DNA of 44,098 nt from a virus. Taxonomy: Duplodnaviria > Heunggongvirae > Uroviricota > Caudoviricetes. The translations under genes were made by a program, and so were the position numbers. Shown one piece after another: positions 10,969-44,098 of this stretch (position 1 is its first letter; each line of letters starts with the position of its first letter). The stretch is from IMG/VR virus record IMGVR_UViG_2585427657_000002; one strand, written 5' to 3'. The notes beneath the pieces are model-generated. The model did no database searches. It saw nothing but the letters and a program-made list of their open reading frames with translations, and was not told the origin of the DNA.

Positions 10969-12051
10969 TTAGAACTGATAAACCAGACCTACAGCGACGA
11001 TGTCGTCGGTATCAATACCAGCTGTTTTGGTAAACTTACTATCGTCAATTAAGTTGATTTTGTAATCAACAAAAGTGGACATGTTTTTATTAAAGTAGTA
11101 AGTAGCACCGACATCGACATACTTGACTAAGTCTCGGTCACCATGAACACCAAGGTCTTTACCTTTTGACTGAAGGTAAGCAACAGATGGACGCAGACCG
11201 AAGTCAAACTGATATTGTGCTACTGCTTCAAAGTTTTGTGCTTTGTTTGCAATATGGTTATTACCAAAAACGGTCATATTCTGAGTTTCAGAATATGTGG
11301 TAGCCAGATAGATATTGTTCGCATCATATTTCAGGCCTGCAGCCCATACTTCCGCATTTTTGCCGGAGGCATTGAATTTGCTCTTACCATAGGCGACCTG
11401 ACCGTCAGTGCGATCTGATTTAGCATAGGTTGCACCCACGCCGAATCCTTCATACTCATAAGTAGTGGAGAAACCGAAACCATCACCATTGGCTTCAGTT
11501 ACGTCAGTGCGGTCATTTTTACCCTGATACTGAGCAGCAAAGTTCAGGCCATCGACCAGACCAAAGAAGTCGTTGTTACGATAAGTTGCAACACCAGTAG
11601 TGCGACCAGTCATGAACACATCTGTTTGGGTCCAGGTATCACCACCGAATTCTGGCAGAACGTCAGTCCACGCACCGATGTCGTATGCTACACCGTAGTT
11701 ACGGCCGTAATCGATTGAGCCGTAATCACCAAATTTCAGGCCTGCAAATGCAAGACGGGTTTTGTCTTTGGAAGAACCTTGAGATTCAGCACGGTTGCCT
11801 TTGAATTCATATTCCCACTGACCGAAACCAGTCAGTTGATCGTTGATTTGGGTTTCACCTTTGAAGCCAAGACGGGCATAAGTAGTATCACCATCATCTG
11901 CATCATTAGAGGAGAAGTAGTGCTTGGCATTAACTTTCCCGTATAGATCCAGCTTGTTACTGTCTTTATTATAAATTTCAGCTGCCTGAGCAGACATCGC
12001 CATCAGTACTGATGCAGCTACAGCAGAAATTGCCACTGTTAATTTTTTCAT
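10969..12051 (-). CDS. nmpC: Outer-membrane general porin, phage-encoded OmpC-family (NmpC/Lc type)
   Basis: Signal peptide [23 protein letters not shown] then AEIYNKD...; C-terminal ...VAVGLVYQF; opposite orientation to phage late genes. Start taken as ATG 12051, not the longer ORF-track start. Confidence 0.9.
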
Positions 12052-12477
12052 TGTACGCCCTTTTTTTGAACTTTTATTAAAAAATGATGTCACTGCGCGA
12101 TAAATATTCATCTAATCAATGTGATTATTTCAAGATGTAAGTTTTAGTTTCTCATTTAATTTGTGAAGTAGATCTCTATTTTTATCTGAACCTTTTCTAT
12201 CTAATCCTATTCATGGCTCTTGTCTGAACAAAAATAAATCTATTAGCTAATTTATATTAATGGCACTTATTTATAAGTGCTCTATAATTCTTTAGCTTAA
12301 TTTAAACAAACTAAAAATAACATCGGAAATTATTAACTGGTTATTTGTTGAAGTTTTCTTATGCATTTGTGGTGGTGTTTTGAACACTCGGTGGCATTCT
12401 CACAAATATCATTTAGTAGTTTACGTACGTAAAAAATTGGTTATGCTGTTAAGAGTGGTTACTTCGTCACACAGCTT

Positions 12478-12510
12478 AAACCCGCCGTCGAGCGGGTTTT
12501 TCCATTTTTT
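12478..12510 (+). terminator. Intrinsic terminator upstream of the lysis cassette (candidate tR')
   Basis: Hairpin CCCGC-CGTCGA-GCGGG followed by TTTTTCCATTTTTT, about 130 bp before the holin start. Confidence 0.55.
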
Positions 12511-12639
12511 GAGTCTCGATATTAGCTGATAACCCAATACCTGAGTTATTCACTGACTCCGAATCTGTTACGTTTCTGCCTTTATTGCGATACGTAGTAT
12601 CCCCTTAATTTACACCCGCTTTGTCTGCGAGGTGGGGTT

Positions 12640-12855
12640 ATGAAATCCATGGATAAGTTAACAACGGGTGTCGCCTATGGTACCTCAGCAGGTAGTGCCG
12701 GGTACTGGTTTTTACAGTTGCTCGATAAAGTCACGCCCTCACAGTGGGCGGCAATAGGTGTGCTGGGTAGCCTGGTATTTGGCCTGCTGACGTACCTGAC
12801 AAACCTTTATTTCAAGATTAAAGAAGATAAGCGCAAGGCTGCGAGAGGTGAATAA
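12640..12855 (+). CDS. S: Holin, phage-21 pinholin type
   Basis: 71 aa, [71 protein letters not shown]; two TM segments, dual-start motif MKSM. Confidence 0.9.
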
Positions 12856-13352
12856 TGCCTCCATCATTACGAAAAGCCGTTGCTGCTGCTATTGGTGGCG
12901 GAGCAATTGCTATAGCATCAGTGTTAATCACTGGCCCAAGTGGTAACGATGGTCTGGAAGGTGTCAGCTACATACCATACAAAGATATTGTTGGTGTATG
13001 GACTGTATGTCACGGGCATACAGGAAAAGACATCATGCTCGGTAAAACGTATACCAAAGCAGAATGCAAAGCCCTCCTGAATAAAGACCTTGCCACGGTC
13101 GCCAGACAAATTAACCCGTACATCAAAGTCGATATACCGGAAACAATGCGCGGCGCTCTTTACTCATTCGTTTACAACGTGGGTGCTGGCAATTTCAGAA
13201 CATCGACGCTTCTTCGCAAAATAAACCAGGGCGATATCAAAGGCGCATGTGATCAGCTACGTCGCTGGACATATGCTGGCGGTAAGCAATGGAAAGGTCT
13301 CATGACTCGTCGTGAGATTGAGCGTGAAATCTGTTTGTGGGGTCAGCAATGA
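12855..13352 (+). CDS. R: SAR endolysin (lysozyme with signal-anchor-release N-terminus)
   Basis: 165 aa; N-terminal weakly hydrophobic SAR segment [20 protein letters not shown] followed by lysozyme domain; overlaps holin stop. Confidence 0.9.
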
Positions 13353-13810
13353 ACAGAGTAACCGCGATTATCTCCGCTCTGGTTATCTGCATCATCGTCT
13401 GCCTGTCATGGGCTGTTAATCATTACCGTGATAACGCCATTACCTACAAAGCCCAGCGCGACAAAAATGCCAGAGAACTGACGCTGGCGAACGCGGCAAT
13501 TACTGACATACAGATGCGTCAGCGTGATGTTGCTGCGCTCGATGCAAAATACACGAAGGAGTTAGCTGATGCGAAAGCTGAAAATGATGCTCTGCGTGAT
13601 GATGTTGCCGCTGGTCGTCGTCGGTTGCACATCAAAGCAGTCTGTCAGTCAGTGCGTGAAGCCACCACCGCCTCCGGCGTGGATAATGCAGCCTCCCCCC
13701 GACTGGCAGACACCGCTGAACGGGATTATTTCACCCTCAGAGAGAGGCTGATCACTATGCAAAAACAACTGGAAGGAACCCAGAAGTATATTAATGAGCA
13801 GTGCAGATAG
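13349..13810 (+). CDS. Rz: Rz i-spanin
   Basis: 153 aa, [38 protein letters not shown]...; N-terminal TM then coiled-coil; ATGA overlap with R. Confidence 0.9.
13569..13751 (+). CDS. Rz1: Rz1 o-spanin lipoprotein, embedded in the +1 frame of Rz
   Basis: [20 protein letters not shown]... lipobox, proline-rich mature part; entirely nested within Rz. Confidence 0.85.
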
Positions 13811-13841
13811 AGCTGCCCATATCGATGGGCAACTCATGCAA

Positions 13842-14135
13842 TTATTGTGAGCAATACACACGCGCTTCCAGCGGAGTATAAATGCCTAAAGTAATAAAAC
13901 CGAGCAATCCATTTACGAATGTTTGCTGGGTTTCTGTTTTAACAACATTTTCTGCACCACCACAAATTTTTGCTGCATCGACAGTTTTCTTCTGCCCAAT
14001 TCCCGAAACGAAGAAATGATGGGTGATGGTTTCCTTTGGTGTTACTGCTGTAGGTTTGTTTCCAACAGTAAACGTCTGTTGAGCACATCCTGTAATAAGC
14101 ATTGCCAGAGCGGCAGAAAACAACATTTTTTTCAT
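13842..14135 (-). CDS. bor: Bor lipoprotein (serum-resistance moron)
   Basis: 97 aa from MKKMLFSAALAMLITGCAQQTFTV... (lipobox LITGC). Confidence 0.9.
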   Translation of the reverse strand: MKKMLFSAALAMLITGCAQQTFTVGNKPTAVTPKETITHHFFVSGIGQKKTVDAAKICGGAENVVKTETQQTFVNGLLGFITLGIYTPLEARVYCSQ

Positions 14136-14615
14136 CTTATTATCCTGCATTGTTAAAAACGGCAGAATCCTATGTGACAACAATTAAACGATAGTTAAAT
14201 GGATTGATGAAAATTAAAACTACACAGGTGGGCTCAGACTATTGGAGGAAGTTGGGGACACTCAGAATCCTGTGGAATGAAATAAACCGGTCTATCCGTC
14301 CATTACCCTTTTAGCTGCGCTGTATCGTCGCCGTATTCCCGCATTAACCATGACCGTAGCCCGACGGGGAATTCCTTCTGCGTGAGTGTGCGGGAATAAT
14401 TAAAAACGATGCACACCGGGTTTTTACCGCGTTAATGATTCGCGGGTTTATCCCGGTGCGATGGTGGAAGAAACAGGAAGCTGTATTACAGAAAGTGCTA
14501 CTACTGTATCCCGATGCGATGTATGTAATGTGAGTCAGATAATGGCACAGGATGTGGTGATGTGGCAGTCTGGAACACAGGATATATTGTCAGAATAAGA
14601 CCCGTAGGAATAAAA

Positions 14616-14942
14616 ATGAAAAGACGCCTTTTACTACTTTTTCTGTTATCTGTCCTGGCAGTGGGATGCTCGCAGCAAAAAGCTGATGAGCCCCGGCAAT
14701 TAGTGACGGTGTATCCACGATATCCGGAATATGCTGCAGCAAATTATATCAAGGGGCTGGTTGAGGTTAAGTTCGATATTGGTGCTGATGGGACTGTGAC
14801 ACGGATCGTTTTTCTCCGCTCAGAGCCTCATAATTTGTTTCGTGATGAAGTGGTGAAGGCCATGGCGAAATGGCGATTTGAAAAGAATCGCCCCTGTCAG
14901 GGAGTGAAGAGACAATTTATCTTTACGCCGTCACGTCCTTGA
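14616..14942 (+). CDS. Lipoprotein with TonB C-terminal-like domain (moron)
   Basis: MKRRLLLLFLLSVLAVGCSQQ signal/lipobox, then VYPRYPEYAAANYIKGLVEVKFDIGADGTVTRIVFLRSEPHNLFRDEVVKAMAKWRFE, which matches the TonB_C pattern (YP..A...G.V.V.F.I..DG.V..I.......F...V..A...WR). Confidence 0.7.
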   Translation: MKRRLLLLFLLSVLAVGCSQQKADEPRQLVTVYPRYPEYAAANYIKGLVEVKFDIGADGTVTRIVFLRSEPHNLFRDEVVKAMAKWRFEKNRPCQGVKRQFIFTPSRP

Positions 14943-15064
14943 TGCTTCCAGGTAGAGAGGGGCTGGAAGCAGGAGAAAAATGAAAGAGCCAGCGGTTATA
15001 TTTTTGTCATGGCTGACGAGGAATGATGGAAGAAGGCGTTGTATGCCACACAACGCCTCACTGT

Positions 15065-15418
15065 TCATTTCTTCTTTTTCTCTGGTGGAACCCGATGAAT
15101 AAGAGTTGCACTGGTTTCCGATGAGATGGCGATATACTCGGGCAAAGTATGCTGGCAGTTTTCCAACTGGTCAAAAATACCTGCTCTCGTCTGTTGCAAT
15201 GCCTGCAGCATGCGGCGGCAATGCGCCTTGCTTTTACTAACCATCTTTCCTTCCTCTATCAGTCGCTGCGTGAACTCATCATGGAATACCAGGTAAATGC
15301 GGATGTTATCGGTTTTGGCTACGCAGCATAGTACAAAACGGACAGGTGCATCCCGGGACGGGGGAGGCGTCACATGTCCCTGTGATGGTTGTTCCGGGTA
15401 ATGTACTGTGTGGGGCAT
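15065..15418 (-). CDS. Hypothetical ORF (117 aa), coding status uncertain
   Basis: Open frame only; overlaps the small secretory ORF 15306..15557 and a + strand 60-aa ORF; identical copy at 19418..19771. Confidence 0.25.
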   Translation of the reverse strand: MPHTVHYPEQPSQGHVTPPPSRDAPVRFVLCCVAKTDNIRIYLVFHDEFTQRLIEEGKMVSKSKAHCRRMLQALQQTRAGIFDQLENCQHTLPEYIAISSETSATLIHRVPPEKKKK

Positions 15419-15557
15419 AAAAATGTCCGATAATTTTACTTTCTACCGCAGTTAGTTGATTCGTTGGTCCTGGTAGCACATTGGGCGAGGATTTAAATGC
15501 CAGGCAACTGAAGGATGATGTCGCAAGGGAGATAGCGAGAATATTTCTGATTTTCAT
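15306..15557 (-). CDS. Small predicted secreted Cys-rich protein (83 aa)
   Basis: MKIRNILAISLATSSFSCLA-FKSS signal peptide; mature part has four Cys (C..C.C..C near the C-terminus); identical copy at 19659..19910. Confidence 0.3.
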   Translation of the reverse strand: MKIRNILAISLATSSFSCLAFKSSPNVLPGPTNQLTAVESKIIGHFYAPHSTLPGTTITGTCDASPVPGCTCPFCTMLRSQNR

Positions 15558-15705
15558 TTGATGATGCCTCTGTGTGAAATGACGGTAAACGACGCACTTG
15601 TGCCGGCACATAATAGCAAGCACCATAATAGATCAGATTCGATTCTTGCTGTAAGTGATAATTATTCTCGTTTTCGGGTCCTTTCCGTCGATCCAACAGG
15701 TTACG

Positions 15706-15717
15706 GGGCGGCGACCT
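15706..15717 (+). other. cos: cosN cohesive-end site GGGCGGCGACCT (copy 1)
   Basis: ...ATCCAACAGGTTACG|GGGCGGCGACCT|CGCGG... matches the lambda right-end/left-end junction as recalled; cosB-like inverted GTCCGACATGAAAG / CATGTCGGGC elements lie between it and Nu1. Confidence 0.85.
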
Positions 15718-15893
15718 CGCGGTTTTTCACTATTTATGAAAATTTTTCAGGGAAAATCGTGTCGGTACTTCTCGAATATAACTTTTTGTTTTTTTTAATA
15801 TTGCATCCGTAAAGGTCCGACATGAAAGTGTCCGAAAATGCCTTTTTCTGGCGTTTTCATGTCGGGCCTTGTATTTGATAATGGGTTGTTTTC

Positions 15894-16158
15894 ATGAAGG
15901 TTAATAAAAAGAGGCTTGCCGAAATTTTCAACGTGGACCCGCGGACGATTGAACGCTGGCAGTCTCAGGGACTCCCTTGCGCCTCCAAAGGTAGTAAGGG
16001 CATTGAATCTGTATTTGATACTGCCATGGCAATTCAGTGGTATGCGCAGAGGGAAACTGATATCGAAAACGAAAAGCTCCGCAAAGAACTGGACGATTTG
16101 CGTGCGGCAGCGGAGTCAGATTTACAACCCGGCACCATTGACTATGAACGCTACCGGC
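15894..16158 (+). pseudogene. nu1: Terminase small subunit Nu1, 5' copy truncated after codon ~88 by a rearrangement junction
   Basis: [33 protein letters not shown]...TIDYERYR then sequence switches to the reverse complement of the porin upstream region. Confidence 0.7.
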
Positions 16159-16323
16159 ACATCTTGAAATAATCACATTGATTAGATGAATATTTATCGC
16201 GCAGTGACATCATTTTTTAATAAAAGTTCAAAAAAAGGGCGTACAATGAAAAAATTAACAGTGGCAATTTCTGCTGTAGCTGCATCAGTACTGATGGCGA
16301 TGTCTGCTCAGGCAGCTGAAATT
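16159..16323. repeat. Fold-back arm: reverse complement of 11974..12138 forming a perfect palindrome with 16327..16491
   Basis: 16159..16323 reads as the exact reverse complement of the porin 5' end and upstream region; symmetry centre at about 16325 (GCTGAAATT-ATA-AATTTCAGC). Confidence 0.85.
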
Positions 16324-16830
16324 ATAAATTTCAGCTGCCTGAGCAGACATCGCCATCAGTACTGATGCAGCTACAGCAGAAATTGCCACTGTTAATTTTT
16401 TCATTGTACGCCCTTTTTTTGAACTTTTATTAAAAAATGATGTCACTGCGCGATAAATATTCATCTAATCAATGTGATTATTTCAAGATGTAAGTTTTAG
16501 TTTCTCATTTAATTTGTGAAGTAGATCTCTATTTTTATCTGAACCTTTTCTATCTAATCCTATTCATGGCTCTTGTCTGAACAAAAATAAATCTATTAGC
16601 TAATTTATATTAATGGCACTTATTTATAAGTGCTCTATAATTCTTTAGCTTAATTTAAACAAACTAAAAATAACATCGGAAATTATTAACTGGTTATTTG
16701 TTGAAGTTTTCTTATGCATTTGTGGTGGTGTTTTGAACACTCGGTGGCATTCTCACAAATATCATTTAGTAGTTTACGTACGTAAAAAATTGGTTATGCT
16801 GTTAAGAGTGGTTACTTCGTCACACAGCTT

Positions 16831-16863
16831 AAACCCGCCGTCGAGCGGGTTTTTCCATTTTTT
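16831..16863 (+). terminator. Duplicate of terminator 12478..12510
   Basis: Identical sequence at offset +4353. Confidence 0.5.
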
Positions 16864-16992
16864 GAGTCTCGATATTAGCTGATAACCCAATACCTGAGTT
16901 ATTCACTGACTCCGAATCTGTTACGTTTCTGCCTTTATTGCGATACGTAGTATCCCCTTAATTTACACCCGCTTTGTCTGCGAGGTGGGGTT

Positions 16993-17208
16993 ATGAAATC
17001 CATGGATAAGTTAACAACGGGTGTCGCCTATGGTACCTCAGCAGGTAGTGCCGGGTACTGGTTTTTACAGTTGCTCGATAAAGTCACGCCCTCACAGTGG
17101 GCGGCAATAGGTGTGCTGGGTAGCCTGGTATTTGGCCTGCTGACGTACCTGACAAACCTTTATTTCAAGATTAAAGAAGATAAGCGCAAGGCTGCGAGAG
17201 GTGAATAA
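16993..17208 (+). CDS. S: Holin (duplicate copy)
   Basis: Identical to 12640..12855. Confidence 0.85.
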
Positions 17209-17705
17209 TGCCTCCATCATTACGAAAAGCCGTTGCTGCTGCTATTGGTGGCGGAGCAATTGCTATAGCATCAGTGTTAATCACTGGCCCAAGTGGTAAC
17301 GATGGTCTGGAAGGTGTCAGCTACATACCATACAAAGATATTGTTGGTGTATGGACTGTATGTCACGGGCATACAGGAAAAGACATCATGCTCGGTAAAA
17401 CGTATACCAAAGCAGAATGCAAAGCCCTCCTGAATAAAGACCTTGCCACGGTCGCCAGACAAATTAACCCGTACATCAAAGTCGATATACCGGAAACAAT
17501 GCGCGGCGCTCTTTACTCATTCGTTTACAACGTGGGTGCTGGCAATTTCAGAACATCGACGCTTCTTCGCAAAATAAACCAGGGCGATATCAAAGGCGCA
17601 TGTGATCAGCTACGTCGCTGGACATATGCTGGCGGTAAGCAATGGAAAGGTCTCATGACTCGTCGTGAGATTGAGCGTGAAATCTGTTTGTGGGGTCAGC
17701 AATGA
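17208..17705 (+). CDS. R: SAR endolysin (duplicate copy)
   Basis: Identical to 12855..13352. Confidence 0.85.
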
Positions 17706-18163
17706 ACAGAGTAACCGCGATTATCTCCGCTCTGGTTATCTGCATCATCGTCTGCCTGTCATGGGCTGTTAATCATTACCGTGATAACGCCATTACCTAC
17801 AAAGCCCAGCGCGACAAAAATGCCAGAGAACTGACGCTGGCGAACGCGGCAATTACTGACATACAGATGCGTCAGCGTGATGTTGCTGCGCTCGATGCAA
17901 AATACACGAAGGAGTTAGCTGATGCGAAAGCTGAAAATGATGCTCTGCGTGATGATGTTGCCGCTGGTCGTCGTCGGTTGCACATCAAAGCAGTCTGTCA
18001 GTCAGTGCGTGAAGCCACCACCGCCTCCGGCGTGGATAATGCAGCCTCCCCCCGACTGGCAGACACCGCTGAACGGGATTATTTCACCCTCAGAGAGAGG
18101 CTGATCACTATGCAAAAACAACTGGAAGGAACCCAGAAGTATATTAATGAGCAGTGCAGATAG
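17702..18163 (+). CDS. Rz: Rz i-spanin (duplicate copy)
   Basis: Identical to 13349..13810. Confidence 0.85.
17922..18104 (+). CDS. Rz1: Rz1 o-spanin (duplicate copy)
   Basis: Identical to 13569..13751. Confidence 0.8.
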
Positions 18164-18194
18164 AGCTGCCCATATCGATGGGCAACTCATGCAA

Positions 18195-18488
18195 TTATTG
18201 TGAGCAATACACACGCGCTTCCAGCGGAGTATAAATGCCTAAAGTAATAAAACCGAGCAATCCATTTACGAATGTTTGCTGGGTTTCTGTTTTAACAACA
18301 TTTTCTGCACCACCACAAATTTTTGCTGCATCGACAGTTTTCTTCTGCCCAATTCCCGAAACGAAGAAATGATGGGTGATGGTTTCCTTTGGTGTTACTG
18401 CTGTAGGTTTGTTTCCAACAGTAAACGTCTGTTGAGCACATCCTGTAATAAGCATTGCCAGAGCGGCAGAAAACAACATTTTTTTCAT
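18195..18488 (-). CDS. bor: Bor lipoprotein (duplicate copy)
   Basis: Identical to 13842..14135. Confidence 0.85.
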   Translation of the reverse strand: MKKMLFSAALAMLITGCAQQTFTVGNKPTAVTPKETITHHFFVSGIGQKKTVDAAKICGGAENVVKTETQQTFVNGLLGFITLGIYTPLEARVYCSQ

Positions 18489-18968
18489 CTTATTATCCTG
18501 CATTGTTAAAAACGGCAGAATCCTATGTGACAACAATTAAACGATAGTTAAATGGATTGATGAAAATTAAAACTACACAGGTGGGCTCAGACTATTGGAG
18601 GAAGTTGGGGACACTCAGAATCCTGTGGAATGAAATAAACCGGTCTATCCGTCCATTACCCTTTTAGCTGCGCTGTATCGTCGCCGTATTCCCGCATTAA
18701 CCATGACCGTAGCCCGACGGGGAATTCCTTCTGCGTGAGTGTGCGGGAATAATTAAAAACGATGCACACCGGGTTTTTACCGCGTTAATGATTCGCGGGT
18801 TTATCCCGGTGCGATGGTGGAAGAAACAGGAAGCTGTATTACAGAAAGTGCTACTACTGTATCCCGATGCGATGTATGTAATGTGAGTCAGATAATGGCA
18901 CAGGATGTGGTGATGTGGCAGTCTGGAACACAGGATATATTGTCAGAATAAGACCCGTAGGAATAAAA

Positions 18969-19295
18969 ATGAAAAGACGCCTTTTACTACTTTTTCTGTT
19001 ATCTGTCCTGGCAGTGGGATGCTCGCAGCAAAAAGCTGATGAGCCCCGGCAATTAGTGACGGTGTATCCACGATATCCGGAATATGCTGCAGCAAATTAT
19101 ATCAAGGGGCTGGTTGAGGTTAAGTTCGATATTGGTGCTGATGGGACTGTGACACGGATCGTTTTTCTCCGCTCAGAGCCTCATAATTTGTTTCGTGATG
19201 AAGTGGTGAAGGCCATGGCGAAATGGCGATTTGAAAAGAATCGCCCCTGTCAGGGAGTGAAGAGACAATTTATCTTTACGCCGTCACGTCCTTGA
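18969..19295 (+). CDS. TonB-C-like lipoprotein (duplicate copy)
   Basis: Identical to 14616..14942. Confidence 0.65.
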   Translation: MKRRLLLLFLLSVLAVGCSQQKADEPRQLVTVYPRYPEYAAANYIKGLVEVKFDIGADGTVTRIVFLRSEPHNLFRDEVVKAMAKWRFEKNRPCQGVKRQFIFTPSRP

Positions 19296-20058
19296 TGCTT
19301 CCAGGTAGAGAGGGGCTGGAAGCAGGAGAAAAATGAAAGAGCCAGCGGTTATATTTTTGTCATGGCTGACGAGGAATGATGGAAGAAGGCGTTGTATGCC
19401 ACACAACGCCTCACTGTTCATTTCTTCTTTTTCTCTGGTGGAACCCGATGAATAAGAGTTGCACTGGTTTCCGATGAGATGGCGATATACTCGGGCAAAG
19501 TATGCTGGCAGTTTTCCAACTGGTCAAAAATACCTGCTCTCGTCTGTTGCAATGCCTGCAGCATGCGGCGGCAATGCGCCTTGCTTTTACTAACCATCTT
19601 TCCTTCCTCTATCAGTCGCTGCGTGAACTCATCATGGAATACCAGGTAAATGCGGATGTTATCGGTTTTGGCTACGCAGCATAGTACAAAACGGACAGGT
19701 GCATCCCGGGACGGGGGAGGCGTCACATGTCCCTGTGATGGTTGTTCCGGGTAATGTACTGTGTGGGGCATAAAAATGTCCGATAATTTTACTTTCTACC
19801 GCAGTTAGTTGATTCGTTGGTCCTGGTAGCACATTGGGCGAGGATTTAAATGCCAGGCAACTGAAGGATGATGTCGCAAGGGAGATAGCGAGAATATTTC
19901 TGATTTTCATTTGATGATGCCTCTGTGTGAAATGACGGTAAACGACGCACTTGTGCCGGCACATAATAGCAAGCACCATAATAGATCAGATTCGATTCTT
20001 GCTGTAAGTGATAATTATTCTCGTTTTCGGGTCCTTTCCGTCGATCCAACAGGTTACG

Positions 20059-20070
20059 GGGCGGCGACCT
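20059..20070 (+). other. cos: cosN (copy 2)
   Basis: Identical to 15706..15717 with the same flanks. Confidence 0.8.
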
Positions 20071-20246
20071 CGCGGTTTTTCACTATTTATGAAAATTTTT
20101 CAGGGAAAATCGTGTCGGTACTTCTCGAATATAACTTTTTGTTTTTTTTAATATTGCATCCGTAAAGGTCCGACATGAAAGTGTCCGAAAATGCCTTTTT
20201 CTGGCGTTTTCATGTCGGGCCTTGTATTTGATAATGGGTTGTTTTC

Positions 20247-20795
20247 ATGAAGGTTAATAAAAAGAGGCTTGCCGAAATTTTCAACGTGGACCCGCGGACG
20301 ATTGAACGCTGGCAGTCTCAGGGACTCCCTTGCGCCTCCAAAGGTAGTAAGGGCATTGAATCTGTATTTGATACTGCCATGGCAATTCAGTGGTATGCGC
20401 AGAGGGAAACTGATATCGAAAACGAAAAGCTCCGCAAAGAACTGGACGATTTGCGTGCGGCAGCGGAGTCAGATTTACAACCCGGCACCATTGACTATGA
20501 ACGCTACCGGCTCACAAAAGCGCAGGCAGATGCGCAGGAACTGAAAAATGCCCGTGAAGACGGAGTAGTGCTGGAAACTGAACTGTTTACCTTCATTCTG
20601 CAACGTGTGGCACAGGAGATTTCGGGGATACTTGTGCGTGTGCCGTTGACATTACAGCGTAAATATCCGGACATTTCACCATCACACCTTGATGTGGTGA
20701 AAACTGAAATCGCGAAAGCCTCCAATGTTGCAGCTAAGGCCGGTGAAAACGTGGGCGGGTGGATCGATGATTTCAGACGCGCAGAAGGCAGCTAA
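20247..20795 (+). CDS. nu1: Terminase small subunit Nu1 (full length, in duplicated copy B)
   Basis: 182 aa; ...[54 protein letters not shown]...; winged-helix N-terminus. Confidence 0.85.
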
Positions 20796-21358
20796 TGCAG
20801 CCGGTGCGATAGCTACAGGGCTTTTATCTCTCATTATTCCTGTTCCACTGACGACAGTTCAGTGGGCCAATAAACATTATTACCTTCCTAAAGAGTCGTC
20901 TTATACCCCGGGGCGATGGGAAACACTGCCGTTTCAGGTTGGCATCATGAACTGTATGGGCAACGATCTGATTCGCACGGTTAACCTGATTAAATCTGCC
21001 CGTGTTGGTTATACAAAGATGTTGCTGGGAGTGGAGGCTTATTTTATTGAGCATAAATCACGCAACAGCCTTCTTTTTCAGCCCACGGACTCAGCTGCTG
21101 AAGATTTTATGAAATCTCATGTTGAGCCAACGATAAGGGATGTTCCTGCATTGCTGGAGCTGGCTCCATGGTTCGGAAGAAAACACCGCGATAATACGCT
21201 CACCCTGAAGCGTTTTTCCTCCGGTGTGGGGTTCTGGTGTCTGGGTGGTGCGGCAGCAAAAAACTACCGTGAAAAATCCGTGGATGTGGTCTGTTATGAC
21301 GAGCTTTCCTCGTTCGAACCGGATGTTGAAAAAGAGGGTTCGCCAACCCTGCTGGGGG
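20725..21358 (+). pseudogene. A: Terminase large subunit A, 5' fragment ending at a rearrangement junction
   Basis: Identical to the first ~210 codons of 22889..24859, then joins sequence equivalent to 15426 onward (...PTLLG then GTCCGATAATTTTAC...). Confidence 0.7.
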
Positions 21359-21638
21359 TCCGATAATTTTACTTTCTACCGCAGTTAGTTGATTCGTTGG
21401 TCCTGGTAGCACATTGGGCGAGGATTTAAATGCCAGGCAACTGAAGGATGATGTCGCAAGGGAGATAGCGAGAATATTTCTGATTTTCATTTGATGATGC
21501 CTCTGTGTGAAATGACGGTAAACGACGCACTTGTGCCGGCACATAATAGCAAGCACCATAATAGATCAGATTCGATTCTTGCTGTAAGTGATAATTATTC
21601 TCGTTTTCGGGTCCTTTCCGTCGATCCAACAGGTTACG

Positions 21639-21650
21639 GGGCGGCGACCT
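21639..21650 (+). other. cos: cosN (copy 3)
   Basis: Identical 12-mer and flanks. Confidence 0.8.
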
Positions 21651-21826
21651 CGCGGTTTTTCACTATTTATGAAAATTTTTCAGGGAAAATCGTGTCGGTA
21701 CTTCTCGAATATAACTTTTTGTTTTTTTTAATATTGCATCCGTAAAGGTCCGACATGAAAGTGTCCGAAAATGCCTTTTTCTGGCGTTTTCATGTCGGGC
21801 CTTGTATTTGATAATGGGTTGTTTTC

Positions 21827-22092
21827 ATGAAGGTTAATAAAAAGAGGCTTGCCGAAATTTTCAACGTGGACCCGCGGACGATTGAACGCTGGCAGTCTCA
21901 GGGACTCCCTTGCGCCTCCAAAGGTAGTAAGGGCATTGAATCTGTATTTGATACTGCCATGGCAATTCAGTGGTATGCGCAGAGGGAAACTGATATCGAA
22001 AACGAAAAGCTCCGCAAAGAACTGGACGATTTGCGTGCGGCAGCGGAGTCAGATTTACAACCCGGCACCATTGACTATGAACGCTACCGGCT
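21827..22092 (+). pseudogene. nu1: Nu1 5' fragment (third copy), truncated after codon ~88
   Basis: ...TIDYERYRL then joins sequence equivalent to 15576 onward. Confidence 0.7.
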
Positions 22093-22222
22093 GAAATGAC
22101 GGTAAACGACGCACTTGTGCCGGCACATAATAGCAAGCACCATAATAGATCAGATTCGATTCTTGCTGTAAGTGATAATTATTCTCGTTTTCGGGTCCTT
22201 TCCGTCGATCCAACAGGTTACG

Positions 22223-22234
22223 GGGCGGCGACCT
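22223..22234 (+). other. cos: cosN (copy 4, the one contiguous with the intact packaging/head operon)
   Basis: Identical 12-mer and flanks, about 190 bp upstream of the intact Nu1 at 22411. Confidence 0.85.
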
Positions 22235-22410
22235 CGCGGTTTTTCACTATTTATGAAAATTTTTCAGGGAAAATCGTGTCGGTACTTCTCGAATATAACT
22301 TTTTGTTTTTTTTAATATTGCATCCGTAAAGGTCCGACATGAAAGTGTCCGAAAATGCCTTTTTCTGGCGTTTTCATGTCGGGCCTTGTATTTGATAATG
22401 GGTTGTTTTC

Positions 22411-22959
22411 ATGAAGGTTAATAAAAAGAGGCTTGCCGAAATTTTCAACGTGGACCCGCGGACGATTGAACGCTGGCAGTCTCAGGGACTCCCTTGCGCC
22501 TCCAAAGGTAGTAAGGGCATTGAATCTGTATTTGATACTGCCATGGCAATTCAGTGGTATGCGCAGAGGGAAACTGATATCGAAAACGAAAAGCTCCGCA
22601 AAGAACTGGACGATTTGCGTGCGGCAGCGGAGTCAGATTTACAACCCGGCACCATTGACTATGAACGCTACCGGCTCACAAAAGCGCAGGCAGATGCGCA
22701 GGAACTGAAAAATGCCCGTGAAGACGGAGTAGTGCTGGAAACTGAACTGTTTACCTTCATTCTGCAACGTGTGGCACAGGAGATTTCGGGGATACTTGTG
22801 CGTGTGCCGTTGACATTACAGCGTAAATATCCGGACATTTCACCATCACACCTTGATGTGGTGAAAACTGAAATCGCGAAAGCCTCCAATGTTGCAGCTA
22901 AGGCCGGTGAAAACGTGGGCGGGTGGATCGATGATTTCAGACGCGCAGAAGGCAGCTAA
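22411..22959 (+). CDS. nu1: Terminase small subunit Nu1
   Basis: 182 aa, identical to 20247..20795; followed by overlapping terminase A. Confidence 0.9.
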
Positions 22960-41450: not shown

Positions 41451-43517
41451 GTGAATATGGCAGTACAGATTTCAGGCGTGCTGAAAGACGGTGCAGGAAA
41501 ACCGATACAGAACTGCACCATTCAGCTCAAAGCAAAACGTAACAGCACCACGGTTGTGGTGAACACGGTGGCCTCAGAAAATCCGGATGAAGCCGGACGT
41601 TACAGCATGGATGTCGAGTATGGCCAGTACAGCGTTATCCTGCTGGTTGAAGGTTTTCCGCCTTCACATGCCGGGGCCATCACCGTGTATGAGGATTCTA
41701 AGCCGGGGACATTGAATGATTTTCTGGGCGCTGCAACAGAAGATGATGTTCGTCCGGAGGCACTGTATCGTTTTGAAAAGATGGTGGAAGAGGTGGCACG
41801 CAACGCTGAAGCCGCCTCTCAGAGCGCAGCGGCAGCAAAGAAATCAGAAACAGCAGCGGCATCGTCCAGGAATGCGGCGAAAACATCAGAGACGAATGCA
41901 GGTAACAGCGCGAAAGCGGCAGCTTCTTCAAAAACAGCCGCACAAAACGCAGCAACAGCGGCAGAACGTTCAGAGACAAATGCCCGTGCGTCAGAAGAAG
42001 CCTCCGCAGACAGTGAAGAGGCTTCCCGCCGTAATGCAGAGTCAGCCGCTGAAAATGCCGGAGTCGCCACCACAAAAGCGCGGGAGGCCGCAGCAGACGC
42101 AACAAAGGCCGGGCAGAAAAAGGATGAGGCTCTGTCGGCAGCGACACGGGCTGAAAAGGCGGCAGACCGCGCAGAAGTCGCAGCGGAAGTGACTGCAGAG
42201 CCCTATGCGAATATAGTGCCGCCGCTGCCTGATGTGTGGATACCGTTTAACGATTCACTGGATATGATTGCGGGTTTTTCTCCGGGCTATAAAAAAATAG
42301 CTATTGGTGACGATGTGGTTCAGGTCGCCAGTGATAAACAGGTTAATTTCAGTCGCGCATCAACGGCAACATATATCAACAAATCTGGCGAACTGAAAAC
42401 GGCGGAAATTAATGAGCCGCGATTTGAGTGTGATGGCCTGCTTATTGAGGGACAAAGAACGAACTACATGCTCAATTCGGAAAGTCCAGCCAGCTGGGGG
42501 AAGTCATCAAACATGGATGTGCCCGAAACCGGGACAGATAGTTTTGGTTTTACTTATGGAAAGTTTGTCTGCAACGATTCTCTGGTTGGGCAAACTTCGG
42601 CTATTAATATGGCATCAATTGCTGCAACAAAGTCAGTTGATGTCTCAGGCGATAACAAGTACGTGACAACCTCATGCCGTTTTAAAACAGAACGACAGGT
42701 AAGGTTACGTATACGGTTTGATAAGTATGATGGTAGTGCAACAACTTTTCTTGGCGATGCGTACATTGATACGCAAACGCTTGAAATTAATATGACAGGT
42801 GGGGCTGCCGGCAGAATTACGGCACGAGTCAGGAAGGATAAGACCACAGGCTGGATTTTTGCAGAGGCAACGATTCAGGCAATTGATGGTGAGTTAAAAA
42901 TAGGCTCTCAGATACAGTATTCTCCTGAGCGGGGTGGGGCAACAGTATCTGGTGACTATATTTATCTTGCCACCCCACAAGTAGAGAATGGGCCGTGTGT
43001 ATCATCATTTATTATTTCAGGAGGCAGCGCAACGACAAGAGCCAGTGATTTGGTTAGTATCCCCACCAGAAATAATCTTTATAAGTTACCATTTACTTTT
43101 TTACTTGAGATTCATAAAAACTGGGATATTGCACCAAACGCCGCACCCCGCGTGTGGGATATAGCAGCAGCCAATACCGGGCAATCAGCAATTGCAGCAA
43201 TCAACAGAGGTAGTGGTAAGTTATATATGAGTCTGTCAAACCCTTCAGGCTTGTATGTTAATAGTGCAGCGACAGATGTATTTGCAGAGAAAACCACATT
43301 TGGATGTATTGCAAAAGCTGATGGTCACTTTCATGTGGTGACAAATGGTAAAGCGGTTAATGAAGTTTATTGTGAATATAATGGTGTGACCGCTGATAAA
43401 AATATCCGATTTGGAGGGCAGACGAATACTGGAGAACGACATCTGTTTGGCCATATTCGCAATTTCCGCATATGGCATAAAGAATTAAATGACAGGCAAT
43501 TAAAAGAGGTCGTATGA
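41451..43517 (+). CDS. stf: Side tail fibre protein (Stf-type N-terminus and Ala-rich shaft; divergent C-terminal distal domain)
   Basis: N-terminus MAVQISGVLKDGAGKPIQNCTIQLKAKRNSTTVVVNTV...GRYSMDVEYGQYSVIL resembles lambda Stf; Ala/Ser-rich repeats with recurring SETNA motif; last ~430 aa unrelated to lambda Stf, ending ...RNFRIWHKELNDRQLKEVV. Confidence 0.8.
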   Translation: MNMAVQISGVLKDGAGKPIQNCTIQLKAKRNSTTVVVNTVASENPDEAGRYSMDVEYGQYSVILLVEGFPPSHAGAITVYEDSKPGTLNDFLGAATEDDVRPEALYRFEKMVEEVARNAEAASQSAAAAKKSETAAASSRNAAKTSETNAGNSAKAAASSKTAAQNAATAAERSETNARASEEASADSEEASRRNAESAAENAGVATTKAREAAADATKAGQKKDEALSAATRAEKAADRAEVAAEVTAEPYANIVPPLPDVWIPFNDSLDMIAGFSPGYKKIAIGDDVVQVASDKQVNFSRASTATYINKSGELKTAEINEPRFECDGLLIEGQRTNYMLNSESPASWGKSSNMDVPETGTDSFGFTYGKFVCNDSLVGQTSAINMASIAATKSVDVSGDNKYVTTSCRFKTERQVRLRIRFDKYDGSATTFLGDAYIDTQTLEINMTGGAAGRITARVRKDKTTGWIFAEATIQAIDGELKIGSQIQYSPERGGATVSGDYIYLATPQVENGPCVSSFIISGGSATTRASDLVSIPTRNNLYKLPFTFLLEIHKNWDIAPNAAPRVWDIAAANTGQSAIAAINRGSGKLYMSLSNPSGLYVNSAATDVFAEKTTFGCIAKADGHFHVVTNGKAVNEVYCEYNGVTADKNIRFGGQTNTGERHLFGHIRNFRIWHKELNDRQLKEVV

Positions 43518-43792
43518 AAGATTTAACTTTGAAGTTTCATGACAAACTGCAGTTTAAGGCCTTCCTGTCATCTCTTGACTGGGAGGAGGATGAAGACCTC
43601 CAGAATAAACTGTTAGTCGATGAAATTGGTTTCACCTACACAGAAACAGGGGTAACAGAAGAGGGAGAACCTGTCTGTGTCCGGAATGACGGTTATTTTG
43701 TCAACATTCGCATTCTTGATGACTTGTTTGATGTTTCTGTATTCTCTGATTATGTCGTGGAGCTGGAAACACCGCTTCGGGAATGGAGCTGA
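43514..43792 (+). CDS. Hypothetical acidic protein (92 aa), translationally coupled to stf
   Basis: ATGA overlap with stf stop; MKDLTLKFHDKLQFKAFLSSLDWEEDEDLQNKLLVDEIGFTYTE...; not a recognisable Tfa. Confidence 0.5.
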   Translation: MKDLTLKFHDKLQFKAFLSSLDWEEDEDLQNKLLVDEIGFTYTETGVTEEGEPVCVRNDGYFVNIRILDDLFDVSVFSDYVVELETPLREWS

Positions 43793-43804
43793 AAGGAGGA
43801 AATA

Positions 43805-44098
43805 ATGGATATAAGCCCCTTACTTCATGCGCTTTGTGCTGTGGCTGCGCAGATACTGGTTGGTCTTTTTACCGGAAACTGGGCTTACGGAGCGATAGCC
43901 GGTTGTACGTTCTTCATTGCGCGTGAACATACCCAGGCAGAATATCGCTGGATTGAAATGTTCGGGCATGGCAAGCGAATGAATATGCCGTGGTGGGGCG
44001 GTTTTGATCCGCGAGCTTGGGATGTGGCAAGCCTGATGGATTTTGCTGTGCCGGTGGTGGCGTGTCTGCTGGTCTGGCTGTTGGTTAATCGTGGGTGA
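43805..44098 (+). CDS. Hypothetical small integral membrane protein (97 aa)
   Basis: GGAGG 6 nt upstream of ATG; hydrophobic segments LLHALCAVAAQILVGLF, AYGAIAGCTFFIA, FAVPVVACLLVWLLV; stop codon is the last three bases of the window. Confidence 0.5.
   Translation: MDISPLLHALCAVAAQILVGLFTGNWAYGAIAGCTFFIAREHTQAEYRWIEMFGHGKRMNMPWWGGFDPRAWDVASLMDFAVPVVACLLVWLLVNRG

What the first reader, a model, noticed from the sequence alone, without database searches (positions are those of the whole stretch)
43514..44098. Two small unassigned genes after the tail fibre where a tfa chaperone is expected
A 92-aa acidic protein overlaps the stf stop codon (coupled translation), and a 97-aa protein with three hydrophobic segments follows with its own RBS. 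Neither resembles the ~190-aa Tfa chaperone. The first may be a novel fibre chaperone; the second is a candidate inner-membrane exclusion or immunity-type protein, typical cargo at the tail-fibre end of prophages. The window ends at its stop codon, so downstream context is unseen.
Basis: partly seen in the sequence, partly recalled or inferred. Interest (0 to 1): 0.35.

Follow-up and report, generated by a model that had tools for sequence, protein, structure and literature searches.

The report
Fibre partner gene plus membrane gene
Both small genes after the side tail fibre are real: the first is a dedicated partner of a widely shared sugar-binding fibre tip, and the second belongs to a separate, widespread membrane-protein family that phages of many kinds carry right after their host-recognition genes; neither has a known function.

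Summary
orf92 (43514-43792) overlaps the stf stop codon (ATGA). orf97 (43805-44098) follows with an AAGGAGG ribosome-binding site. This stretch is 100% identical to phage 21 genes CPT_21_23 and CPT_21_24, annotated "hypothetical protein" and "putative membrane protein".

orf92 (phrog_1361) is not a Tfa. It always abuts a fibre gene whose C-terminal ~430 residues match Stf 255-688. This holds in lambdoids, phage-plasmids and virulent T5-like, Drexlerviridae, Nonagvirus and Dhillonvirus phages. A P1-like Leclercia element has two tandem module-plus-orf92 pairs. The most likely role is a dedicated assembly partner or bound subunit of that lectin-type fibre tip. A joint for a distal fibre is the rival.

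orf97 (phrog_1443) is a separate mosaic module. It is a three-helix membrane protein with an invariant REHTQAEYRWI...MPWWGGFD loop, found across Proteobacteria. In 13 of 16 contexts it sits just after receptor-binding genes of sipho-, myo- and podophages. It is also a syntenic chromosomal gene in five Aeromonas species. An envelope-acting conversion or exclusion role is plausible but untested.

Neither protein matches Pfam, NCBIfam, PADLOC or PDB. These are useful leads, not discoveries.

The parts
41451..43517 (+). stf, the side tail fibre gene (688 aa). It has an N-terminal phage_tail_N anchor, an Ala-rich coiled stalk and a C-terminal lectin-type module.
   Evidence: ORF table. Pfam phage_tail_N E 9.8e-69 and Laminin_G_3 at residues 562-683. 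NCBIfam GTA_spike_fiber at residues 331-531. phrog_1419. 100% identical over the sequence compared (window 43400-44098) to CPT_21_22 'side tail fiber' of phage 21.
42213..43514 (+). C-terminal module of Stf (residues ~255-688). This is the part that co-occurs with orf92 in other phages.
   Evidence: It is 45-71% identical to the C-termini of fibres in a DT57C/T5-like-tailed prophage (L007/L008), JenP1, tonn, Bas32, PhiR63_1, IdasGreatGrand and ev243, while the N-termini differ. It is 31-33% identical to two proteins of a P1-like Leclercia element. It also matches a 405-aa protein of a metagenomic siphophage, 26% identity over Stf 295-538 only, E 3e-10.
43504..43509 (+). Ribosome-binding site (AAGAGG) of orf92, inside the end of stf.
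   Evidence: Read from the sequence. Annotated as an RBS in phage 21.
43514..43792 (+). orf92: a 92-aa acidic soluble alpha/beta protein (phrog_1361), the proposed dedicated partner of the Stf C-terminal module.
   Evidence: ATGA overlap with the stf stop. pI 4.10. AlphaFold2 pLDDT 89.7. Found in 145 phage records, all next to fibre genes in the rows listed or inspected. Purifying selection. No PDB or viral structural relative with a known function.
43793..43799 (+). Ribosome-binding site (AAGGAGG) of orf97, 5 nt before its ATG and directly after the orf92 stop codon.
   Evidence: Read from the sequence. Annotated as an RBS in phage 21.
43805..44098 (+). orf97: a 97-aa three-helix membrane protein (phrog_1443) with an invariant R40-I50 stretch and an MPWWGGFD loop. 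It is a separate mosaic module.
   Evidence: ORF. AlphaFold2 pLDDT 95.1 with helices at 4-23, 26-53 and 74-96. 577 clusters at 90% identity across Proteobacteria, with 26 invariant columns. It is 92-95% identical among lambdoids whose stf C-terminal modules are only 51-71% and whose orf92 only 42-80% identical.

Best explanation
The two genes are independent modules.

(1) orf92 is a dedicated partner of the lectin-type C-terminal module of the side tail fibre (a GTA-spike-fibre-like domain plus a ConA/Laminin-G-like domain, Stf residues ~255-688). It is made by coupled translation with the fibre. It acts on or binds that module, either as a folding/assembly chaperone that takes the place of Tfa, or as a small subunit that stays on the fibre tip. 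What is shown: the obligatory genetic linkage, the 1:1 pairing, its presence in virulent phages, purifying selection, and the absence of any Tfa features. What is inferred: the physical interaction and the chaperone activity.

(2) orf97 is a different mosaic unit. It is a small, highly conserved inner-membrane protein that phages of all three tail types place at the 3' end of their receptor-binding gene cluster. It most likely acts on the host envelope, through its invariant loop and intramembrane polar residues, on a target conserved across Proteobacteria. In that way it would change the susceptibility of the lysogen or infected cell to phage (conversion or superinfection exclusion), rather than take part in fibre assembly. 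What is shown: the family, its conservation and its positional association. What is inferred: the target and the phenotype.
For: orf92:
- In every context inspected its start overlaps or abuts the stop of a fibre gene carrying the same ~430-aa module (ATGA, TAATG, GTGA, TGATG). This covers 4 lambdoids, the phage-plasmid PhiR41_1, a prophage with a DT57C/T5-like distal tail protein, Bas32 and L6jm (T5-like), tonn (Drexlerviridae), JenP1 (Nonagvirus) and Ioannina (Dhillonvirus).
- It is found in 145 phage records, many of them virulent, so it is a virion-morphogenesis gene and not lysogenic cargo.
- The P1-like Leclercia element has two tandem pairs: a 700-aa protein plus a 94-aa one, then a 437-aa protein that is essentially the module alone plus a 95-aa one. 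Each module therefore has its own orf92 homologue.
- A distant metagenomic siphophage has a 405-aa protein matching the first half of the module (Stf 295-538), followed with ATGA overlap by a protein whose N-terminus is orf92-like.
- Phage 21 and ev243 have no distal fibre gene yet keep an intact orf92 (dN 0.30, dS saturated).
- It is soluble, acidic and confidently folded. Its C-terminal tail is conserved (V81, V82, P87, L88, E90, W91) but has lower pLDDT, as expected for a docking peptide.

orf97:
- It is 92-95% identical (dS 0.13-0.22) among phages whose orf92 is 42-80% identical (dS saturated in most pairs), so a recombination boundary lies between the two genes.
- The same family follows a P22-like tailspike (Gally), a Tfa in Halomonas phiHAP-1, P2-like fibres in Aeromonas and Leclercia, a pectate-lyase spike in Citrobacter, and gpJ in Comamonas. 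It lies between two tailspike genes in a Salmonella myoprophage, and after the fibre cassettes of a P1-like element.
- In Gally a 9-bp GC-rich hairpin with a T-run and a 190-nt AT-rich spacer separate it from the tailspike gene, which is moron architecture.
- 26 columns are invariant at only 62% mean column identity, including H8, Q16 and D79 within helices and the contiguous R40-I50 stretch.
Against: orf92:
- There is no direct evidence of binding or chaperone activity.
- Pairwise identity of orf92 does not track that of the module (Spearman -0.13).
- In all 7 virulent-phage contexts and 2 of 4 lambdoid contexts a distal fibre gene with a shared N-terminal motif follows at 9-12 nt (85 nt in Ioannina). 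This fits an adaptor role equally well.
- Humolli et al. modelled the Bas32 proximal and distal fibres without assigning any role to the homologue gp23.

orf97:
- In this phage it is 12 nt after orf92, with no promoter-like or terminator-like site nearby. Expression from the prophage is therefore not indicated.
- It is a syntenic, non-phage chromosomal gene in five Aeromonas species.
- It has no PADLOC hit and matches only PHROG families of unknown function.
- The same protein accompanies receptor-binding proteins of unrelated specificity, so it cannot be a receptor-specific mask like Cor or Llp.
- Its membrane topology is unresolved: positive-inside counting puts the loop in the cytoplasm, while the phage 21 annotators' TMHMM run puts it in the periplasm.
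Confidence: 0.45

Rival explanations
1. orf92 is a structural joint or adaptor. It stays in the virion at the end of the proximal fibre and docks the N-terminus of a distal receptor-binding fibre, working like the T4 gp35/gp36 knee. In phage 21 the distal fibre has been lost and orf92 persists as a cap.
For: In Bas32, L6jm, tonn, JenP1, Ioannina, PhiR63_1, IdasGreatGrand and the L008 prophage, a second fibre gene follows orf92 at 9-85 nt. Seven of these share the N-terminal motif M[AV]T.T.IP.DI..LK..V..LK.D; the Ioannina N-terminus was not read. orf92 of PhiR63_1 and IdasGreatGrand is 80% identical, as are their distal N-termini, whereas their Stf modules are only 57% identical. Humolli et al. 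2025 describe the Bas32 fibre as a proximal fibre carrying a T-shaped distal receptor-binding protein.
Against: Phage 21, ev243 and about 27 closely related lambdoid records have no distal fibre yet keep an intact orf92 under selection. In the P1-like element each module has its own orf92 homologue, and the second 'fibre' is the module itself, without the distal N-terminal motif. No fusions of orf92 to fibre proteins were found among 1.84 billion representative proteins.
Confidence: 0.25
2. orf97 is a host-type housekeeping membrane protein, for example a small subunit or regulator of a conserved envelope enzyme or transporter. Prophages carry it as a fitness moron with no anti-phage role.
For: There is a fully syntenic chromosomal locus (pirin - orf97 homologue - RIO1 kinase - two lipid A acyltransferases) at 81-88% DNA identity in A. 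rivipollensis, A. aquatica, A. media (two strains) and A. taiwanensis, with no phage genes nearby. Sequence conservation is very high across alpha-, beta-, gamma- and delta-proteobacteria. Its neighbour in this phage type is another fitness moron, sitABCD.
Against: This does not explain why the gene sits directly after receptor-binding genes in 13 of 16 contexts, sometimes overlapping their stop codon or lying between two tailspike genes inside late operons.
Confidence: 0.25
3. orf97 is lysis-related: a holin, antiholin or lysis-timing factor.
For: It is a small three-helix membrane protein. In a Comamonas prophage and a metagenomic siphophage it directly precedes two holin-like membrane proteins; in the metagenomic phage these are followed by a GH108 endolysin. 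In the P1-like element it precedes a 104-aa gene placed where lydA would be, followed by lydB.
Against: It has no charged C-terminal tail (it ends LLVNRG). It is far more conserved than holins are. It is chromosomal in Aeromonas. Those phages already have holin candidates. In lambdoid, P2-like and P22-like phages it lies far from the lysis genes.
Confidence: 0.08
4. One or both ORFs are non-functional remnants or chance ORFs.
For: Both are annotated only as hypothetical, and some database copies are truncated.
Against: Full-length PHROG matches, hundreds of intact homologues, dN/dS well below 1, strong ribosome-binding sites and confident folds.
Confidence: 0.01

Closest known systems
Tail fibre assembly proteins of the Tfa / Caudo_TAP type (lambda Tfa, P2 gpG, Mu gpU)
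   Same: The gene lies immediately downstream of the fibre gene and travels with the fibre's C-terminal receptor-binding module during mosaic exchange. A role in folding the fibre tip, possibly while staying bound, is plausible.
T4 long-tail-fibre joint proteins gp35/gp36, and the proximal/distal branched fibres of T5-like phages (DT57C LtfA/LtfB; Bas32 Gp22/Gp24 in Humolli et al. 2025, PMC11990801)
   Same: A small gene sits between a proximal and a distal fibre gene in most carriers. The distal fibres share an N-terminal docking motif.
   Different: There is no sequence or fold similarity. orf92 is retained where no distal fibre exists, and it is duplicated together with the module in a P1-like element. 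Its presence in virions has not been shown.
Receptor-binding-gene-adjacent exclusion proteins: Cor (phi80, N15, HK022) and Llp (T5)
   Same: The gene lies next to the receptor-binding genes. The protein is small and located in the envelope.
   Different: Cor and Llp are outer-membrane lipoproteins specific for FhuA. orf97 has no lipobox (C11 is not conserved and the -1 residue is Leu), it is an integral helical membrane protein, and it accompanies receptor-binding proteins of unrelated specificity.
Inner-membrane superinfection-exclusion proteins (T4 Imm, P22 SieA, HK97 gp15)
   Same: Small helical inner-membrane proteins encoded by phages. HK97 gp15 is likewise embedded among tail genes.
   Different: orf97 matches only PHROG families of unknown function and no PADLOC model. 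It is far more widely and strongly conserved, and it has chromosomal orthologues in Aeromonas. No phenotype is known.
Lysogenic-conversion loci after the P22-like tailspike gene (gtrABC in P22, oac in Sf6; from general knowledge)
   Same: In the P22-like phage Gally the orf97 homologue occupies this very slot between tailspike and int, behind a terminator-like hairpin.
   Different: It has no similarity to GtrA, GtrB, GtrC or Oac. It is a single 95-97-aa protein, too small to be a typical transferase.

Membership tests
Tfa / Caudo_TAP tail fibre assembly proteins | Sequence match to the Pfam tail-fibre-assembly families | tested here: not met
   orf92 and 19 homologues were scanned against Pfam at E up to 5. 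Only scattered sub-threshold hits appeared (LUD_dom, Integrin_b_cyt), none to a Tfa family. NCBIfam gave none.
Tfa / Caudo_TAP tail fibre assembly proteins | Two-domain protein of ~175-200 aa with a Tfa fold | tested here: not met
Tfa / Caudo_TAP tail fibre assembly proteins | Gene directly downstream of, and co-inherited with, the fibre's C-terminal module | tested here: met
Tfa / Caudo_TAP tail fibre assembly proteins | Required for folding or trimerisation of the fibre tip | not testable with these tools
   This needs co-expression or genetics. No multimer prediction tool was available.
Intramolecular chaperone (Peptidase_S74) fibres, an alternative that would make a separate chaperone unnecessary | S74 domain at the fibre C-terminus | tested here: not met
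   Stf has phage_tail_N, GTA_spike_fiber and Laminin_G_3 domains but no Peptidase_S74.
phrog_1361 (unknown function) | Full-length profile match | tested here: met
   E 8.1e-42, residues 1-91 of 92.
phrog_1443 (unknown function) | Full-length profile match | tested here: met
   E 2.4e-58, residues 1-96 of 97.
Known anti-phage defence or exclusion proteins | Match to a PADLOC model or to a PHROG family annotated as superinfection exclusion | tested here: not met
   PADLOC returned 0 families for both proteins at E up to 1. The PHROG hits are all of unknown function.
Cor/Llp-type exclusion lipoproteins | Signal peptide with a lipobox cysteine | tested here: not met
   No lipobox. C11 is present in only 34% of family members and is preceded by Leu.
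Holins | Small membrane protein with a charged C-terminal tail, encoded next to the endolysin | tested here: not met
   Transmembrane helices are present, but the protein ends right after helix 3. In phage 21-type genomes it is not adjacent to the lysis genes. Adjacency to lysis-type genes was seen only in three other contexts: a Comamonas prophage, a metagenomic siphophage and a P1-like element.
Tai/Ati tail-assembly-inhibition systems (He et al. 2024, PMC11364771) | Location upstream of the packaging module, with the central tail fibre as target | tested here: not met
   [quoted passage not shown] This is a different locus and no relationship is indicated.

The most novel reading that the evidence does not exclude
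orf97 represents a large, unrecognised family of phage-borne inner-membrane proteins, recruited from a cellular gene, that sipho-, myo- and podophages across Proteobacteria place after their receptor-binding genes. Through its invariant REHTQAEYRWI/MPWWGGFD loop it would act on a universally conserved envelope component, such as a polyprenyl-phosphate-dependent step of surface-polysaccharide synthesis or a DNA-entry factor. That would make it a general conversion or superinfection-exclusion function independent of receptor type. In parallel, orf92 would define a new, non-Tfa class of chaperone for lectin-tipped lateral fibres.
Probability: 0.3. Interest if true: 0.65.

Novelty: new variant of a known kind. 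Interest (0 to 1): 0.4.

Why it matters
The Stf-type C-terminal module is one of the most widely exchanged lateral-fibre parts among coliphages. It occurs in lambdoids, T5-like phages, Drexlerviridae, Queuovirinae, Dhillonvirus, and P1-like and SSU5-like phage-plasmids.

If it needs the 92-aa partner, then swapping fibres to retarget therapeutic or engineered phages must carry orf92 along. Structural models of these fibres, such as the one for Bas32, would also be incomplete without it.

The orf97 family is a conserved, unannotated membrane protein that marks the end of receptor-binding clusters in many prophages. A phenotype would add a new and very common class of prophage-encoded envelope function. 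It would also give a function to a conserved Aeromonas gene.

Tried and rejected
- Pfam, NCBIfam and PADLOC scans of both proteins and of 20 and 35 homologues gave nothing above threshold. A weak PhoR N-terminal hit for orf97 (7 of 35 members, E about 0.04) reflects only a membrane-hairpin likeness.
- Foldseek against viral predicted structures matched orf92 only to uncharacterised small phage proteins.
- PDB sequence-profile searches found nothing.
- An exhaustive profile search with orf92 looked for fusions to fibre proteins. It found 78 representatives, nearly all stand-alone proteins of under about 150 aa. Nine long hits appeared; the five scanned are TPR or PKD repeat proteins matched by short repeated stretches and were rejected as spurious.
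- Co-variation of orf92 identity with Stf-module identity was inconclusive. The Pearson value of 0.51 is driven by one identical pair, and Spearman is -0.13.
- Tai/Ati tail-assembly-inhibition systems are at a different locus and unrelated.
- Literature searches on phage 21, Jouyvirus, the FIG and PHROG identifiers and sitABCD found no functional statement on either gene. The BASEL papers describe the homologous Bas32 fibre but not the small gene.
- The consensus promoter/terminator scan around orf97 in phage 21 found no + strand site near orf97; the only hit was a promoter-like site on the - strand.
- Per-locus classification of the 50 genome loci was attempted by scanning the largest upstream ORF. 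It showed a mixture of tail-fibre and ordinary chromosomal neighbours, but the crude ORF calls in GC-rich genomes make the proportions unreliable.
Full report
**Observation.**
The end of the window holds three co-oriented genes.
- stf runs 41451-43517.
- orf92 runs 43514-43792. Its ATG overlaps the stf stop as ATGA, and AAGAGG lies 4 nt upstream.
- orf97 runs 43805-44098, with AAGGAGG 5 nt upstream. Its TGA is the last base of the window.

orf92 is acidic (pI 4.10; 22 D+E against 8 K+R). orf97 is hydrophobic with three predicted helices.

**Identity.**
Window 43400-44098 is 100% identical to phage 21 (OL657228.1), ev017 and PhiR63_2, and 94-99.7% identical to about 20 more lambdoid coliphages.
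- In phage 21 the genes are CPT_21_22 'side tail fiber', CPT_21_23 'hypothetical protein' and CPT_21_24 'putative membrane protein'.
- The context missing from the window is a convergent sitDCBA operon starting 91 nt after orf97, then attP and int.
- The rest of the window matches PhiR57_1, PhiR63_2 and ev017 at 99.9%, starting at the integrase.

**Neither gene is assigned.**
- orf92 matches phrog_1361 and orf97 matches phrog_1443, both of unknown function.
- Pfam, NCBIfam and PADLOC give nothing significant for the two proteins or for 20 and 35 aligned homologues.
- Both fold confidently (pLDDT 89.7 and 95.1).
- PDB sequence-profile searches are empty.
- In BFVD, orf92 resembles only uncharacterised small phage proteins.
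- No paper found discusses either gene.

**orf92 belongs to the fibre.**
- Stf has a phage_tail_N anchor, an alanine-rich stalk, and a C-terminal part with a GTA_spike_fiber domain (residues 331-531) and a Laminin_G_3 / ConA-like domain (residues 562-683).
- A 57%-identical orf92 homologue lies in a quite different siphophage prophage. The gene order there is portal, capsid, a 704-aa fibre, orf92, an S74 fibre, then the tail tube. Its 704-aa fibre shares only the last ~435 residues with Stf, at 54% identity.
- A tblastn search finds orf92 in 145 phage records. The rows listed overlap a fibre gene wherever the record is annotated, and many records are virulent phages: T5-like Bas32, L6jm and T5_ev219; Drexlerviridae such as tonn; Nonagvirus JenP1; Dhillonvirus Ioannina.
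- In each inspected case the upstream fibre carries the same module, 45-71% identical to Stf 255-688, and the orf92 start overlaps or abuts its stop.
- A P1-like Leclercia element carries two tandem pairs. The first is a 700-aa protein followed by a 94-aa one. The second is a 437-aa protein, essentially the module alone, followed by a 95-aa one. Both small proteins are orf92 homologues (E 1e-16 to the family profile).
- A metagenomic siphophage has a 405-aa protein homologous to Stf 295-538, followed with ATGA overlap by a protein whose N-terminus is orf92-like.
- An exhaustive search of 1.84 billion representative proteins finds only 78 matches. Nearly all are stand-alone proteins shorter than about 150 aa. 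Nine long hits appeared; the five scanned are TPR or PKD repeat proteins and are artefacts, so no fusion to a fibre protein was found.
- Non-synonymous divergence is 0.30-0.57 while synonymous sites are saturated, so the gene is under purifying selection.

**Chaperone or joint?**
- In all seven virulent-phage contexts and in two of four lambdoid contexts, a distal fibre gene follows orf92 (at 9-12 nt in most; 85 nt in Ioannina).
- These distal fibres share an N-terminal motif, M[AV]T.T.IP.DI..LK..V..LK.D; the Ioannina and L6jm N-termini were not read.
- Humolli et al. (PMC11990801) model Bas32 Gp22 as a proximal fibre with a protruding galectin-like C-terminal domain, on which the T-shaped receptor-binding protein Gp24 docks. 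The orf92 homologue gp23 receives no role in that model.
- An adaptor or knee function is therefore a serious rival.
- Against it, phage 21, ev243 and their many relatives lack a distal fibre yet keep orf92 intact.
- Also against it, in the P1-like element the pairing is one orf92 per module.
- I therefore favour a dedicated partner of the module, either a chaperone or a retained subunit, at about 0.5, against about 0.25 for the joint.
- Identity of orf92 does not co-vary simply with identity of the module, so that test was uninformative.

**orf97 is a separate module.**
- Among the four lambdoids compared, orf97 is 92-95% identical (dS 0.13-0.22), while orf92 is 42-80% and the Stf module 51-71% identical, with dS saturated in most pairs. 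A recombination boundary therefore lies between orf92 (or the distal fibre) and orf97.
- The family is large: 577 clusters at 90% identity, in Escherichia, Salmonella, Citrobacter, Enterobacter, Leclercia, Aeromonas and Comamonas. A pattern scan of one genome per species adds Pantoea, Silvania, Acidovorax, Pigmentiphaga, Chelativorans, Sphingomonas, Halomonas and Desulfovibrio.
- Members at 57-64% identity still share 26 invariant positions: D2, H8 and Q16 in helix 1, C34, the contiguous stretch R40-E41-(H42)-T43-Q44-A45-E46-Y47-R48-W49-I50, G56, R58, M61-P62, G65-G66-F67-D68, W72, and D79 and P83 in helix 3.
- The loop between residues 40 and 73 carries about 5.5 basic residues, which suggests a cytoplasmic location. 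The phage 21 annotators' TMHMM run suggests the opposite. Topology is unresolved.

**Genomic position of orf97.**
In 13 of 16 distinct contexts it comes directly after receptor-binding genes:

| Context | Position |
|---|---|
| Lambdoids | after stf-orf92, with or without a distal fibre |
| Phage-plasmid PhiR41_1 | after stf-orf92 |
| P22-like Gally | after the tailspike, before int |
| Halomonas phiHAP-1 | overlapping the Tfa stop |
| P2-like prophages of Aeromonas and Leclercia | abutting or overlapping the fibre stop |
| Salmonella myoprophage | between two tailspike genes |
| Citrobacter siphoprophage | after a pectate-lyase spike |
| Comamonas prophage | after gpJ and a 72-aa gene |
| P1-like element | after the two fibre cassettes, before a lydA-position gene and lydB |
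| Metagenomic siphophage | after the orf92-like gene, before a holin/GH108 cassette |
| Virulent phage HC6 | truncated, unannotated copy after an 859-aa late protein |

- In Gally a 9-bp GC-rich hairpin with a T-run, followed by an AT-rich spacer, precedes the gene. This is moron-like architecture.
- In phage 21 nothing of the kind is seen.

**Counter-evidence for orf97 as phage cargo.**
- In A. rivipollensis, A. aquatica, A. media (two strains) and A. taiwanensis the gene sits in one syntenic, phage-free locus: pirin, orf97 homologue, RIO1, two lipid A acyltransferases. DNA identity is 81-88% over 12 kb.
- The family therefore has a cellular member, and phages probably recruited it.

**Mechanism chosen for orf97.**
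- It accompanies receptor-binding proteins of unrelated type and specificity, in all three tail morphologies. It is an integral membrane protein. It is sometimes a separate transcription unit.
- It is therefore not a fibre chaperone and not a receptor-specific mask.
- The best-supported reading is an envelope-acting conversion or superinfection-exclusion function directed at a target conserved across Proteobacteria (about 0.35-0.4).
- The rivals are a host-type fitness gene (about 0.25) and a lysis-related role (about 0.08). The lysis role is disfavoured by the missing charged tail, the strong conservation and the chromosomal orthologues.
- None of these is shown; all are inferred from position and conservation.

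**Comparison with known systems.**
- orf92 works like a Tfa in its genetics, but it fails every testable membership criterion of the Tfa family: sequence, size and fold.
- orf97 resembles Cor, Llp, Imm and HK97 gp15 only in position or size. It has no lipobox, no profile match and no known phenotype.
- Tai/Ati systems are unrelated.

**Verdict.**
- The genes themselves are already deposited as hypothetical proteins of phage 21.
- What this analysis adds:
  - the fibre module and orf92 travel as a cassette across temperate and virulent phages;
  - orf97 is separate from that cassette;
  - the orf97 family is broad, sits consistently at receptor-binding loci, and has a chromosomal counterpart in Aeromonas.
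- Interest is moderate (0.4). These are good experimental leads, with no mechanism demonstrated.

Noticed in passing
window 11968-22391: There are perfect (100%) direct repeats. A block starting at 11968 recurs 4353 bp later at 16321. A 300-nt segment occurs four times, at 15575, 19928, 21508 and 22092. ORFs are duplicated accordingly (12855-13352 = 17208-17705, 13337-13810 = 17690-18163, 14562-14942 = 18915-19295, 20247-20795 = 22411-22959). This looks like a tandem duplication or an assembly artefact of the region between about 12 and 22.4 kb (gene content not examined).
   Followed up: partly
L016:3792-4832, L017:3792-4496, L011:4289-6013, L012:4292-4966, L013:4289-5344: Distal fibre proteins encoded after orf92 homologues share a short N-terminal motif, M[AV]T.T.IP.DI..LK..V..LK.D, although their bodies differ (T-shaped receptor-binding protein, endosialidase-like, short forms). 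It is probably the docking peptide for the proximal fibre.
   Followed up: partly
L075:2892-7288: A P1-like Leclercia phage-plasmid replaces the P1 S/U fibre region with two tandem cassettes, each a module followed by an orf92 homologue (700 aa + 94 aa, then 437 aa + 95 aa). These are followed by an orf97 homologue, then a 104-aa gene where lydA would be, and lydB.
   Followed up: yes
L004:8001-8309 and L023, L025, L029, L030: The chromosomal orf97 orthologue of Aeromonas lies between a pirin gene and a RIO1 kinase gene, 1.2 kb from two lipid A acyltransferase genes (LpxL/LpxM type). This may be a hint of an envelope or LPS connection, or it may be coincidence.
   Followed up: no
L072:3501-3662 (Escherichia phage HC6): An unannotated 54-residue match to orf97 residues 41-94 (42% identity) lies in the gap right after an 859-aa late protein of a virulent 47-kb siphophage. 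The same match is seen in ST1UNAM, ZCEC08, PBM-2 and PBM-3. It may be a truncated or shorter family member.
   Followed up: partly
L014:4789-4855 (Escherichia phage Gally): Between the P22-like tailspike gene and the orf97 homologue lies a terminator-like hairpin (ACCACCTCCATTGGAGGTGGT followed by a T-run), and then a weak promoter-like site. This is the slot where P22 carries gtrABC.
   Followed up: partly
L001:6791-10240 (phage 21), immediately beyond the window end: A convergent sitDCBA iron/manganese transporter operon follows orf97 in the identical phages. Mathieu et al. 2020 report it on 70% of infant-gut lambda phages, with a Fur box upstream.
   Followed up: no
PMC11990801, Fig 12 legend versus main text: The BASEL paper names the Bas32 proximal fibre Gp22 in the figure legend but Gp23 in the text. 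Gp23 is in fact the 92-aa orf92 homologue, annotated 'tail fiber protein' in MZ501075.1.
   Followed up: yes
L078:7296-8900 and L003:8300-9521: In beta-proteobacterial-type siphophages the orf97 homologue is followed by two conserved holin-like membrane proteins (132/125 aa and 99/99 aa, 49% and 64% identical). In L078 these are followed by a GH108 endolysin. This puts the gene at the boundary between the tail and lysis modules.
   Followed up: partly
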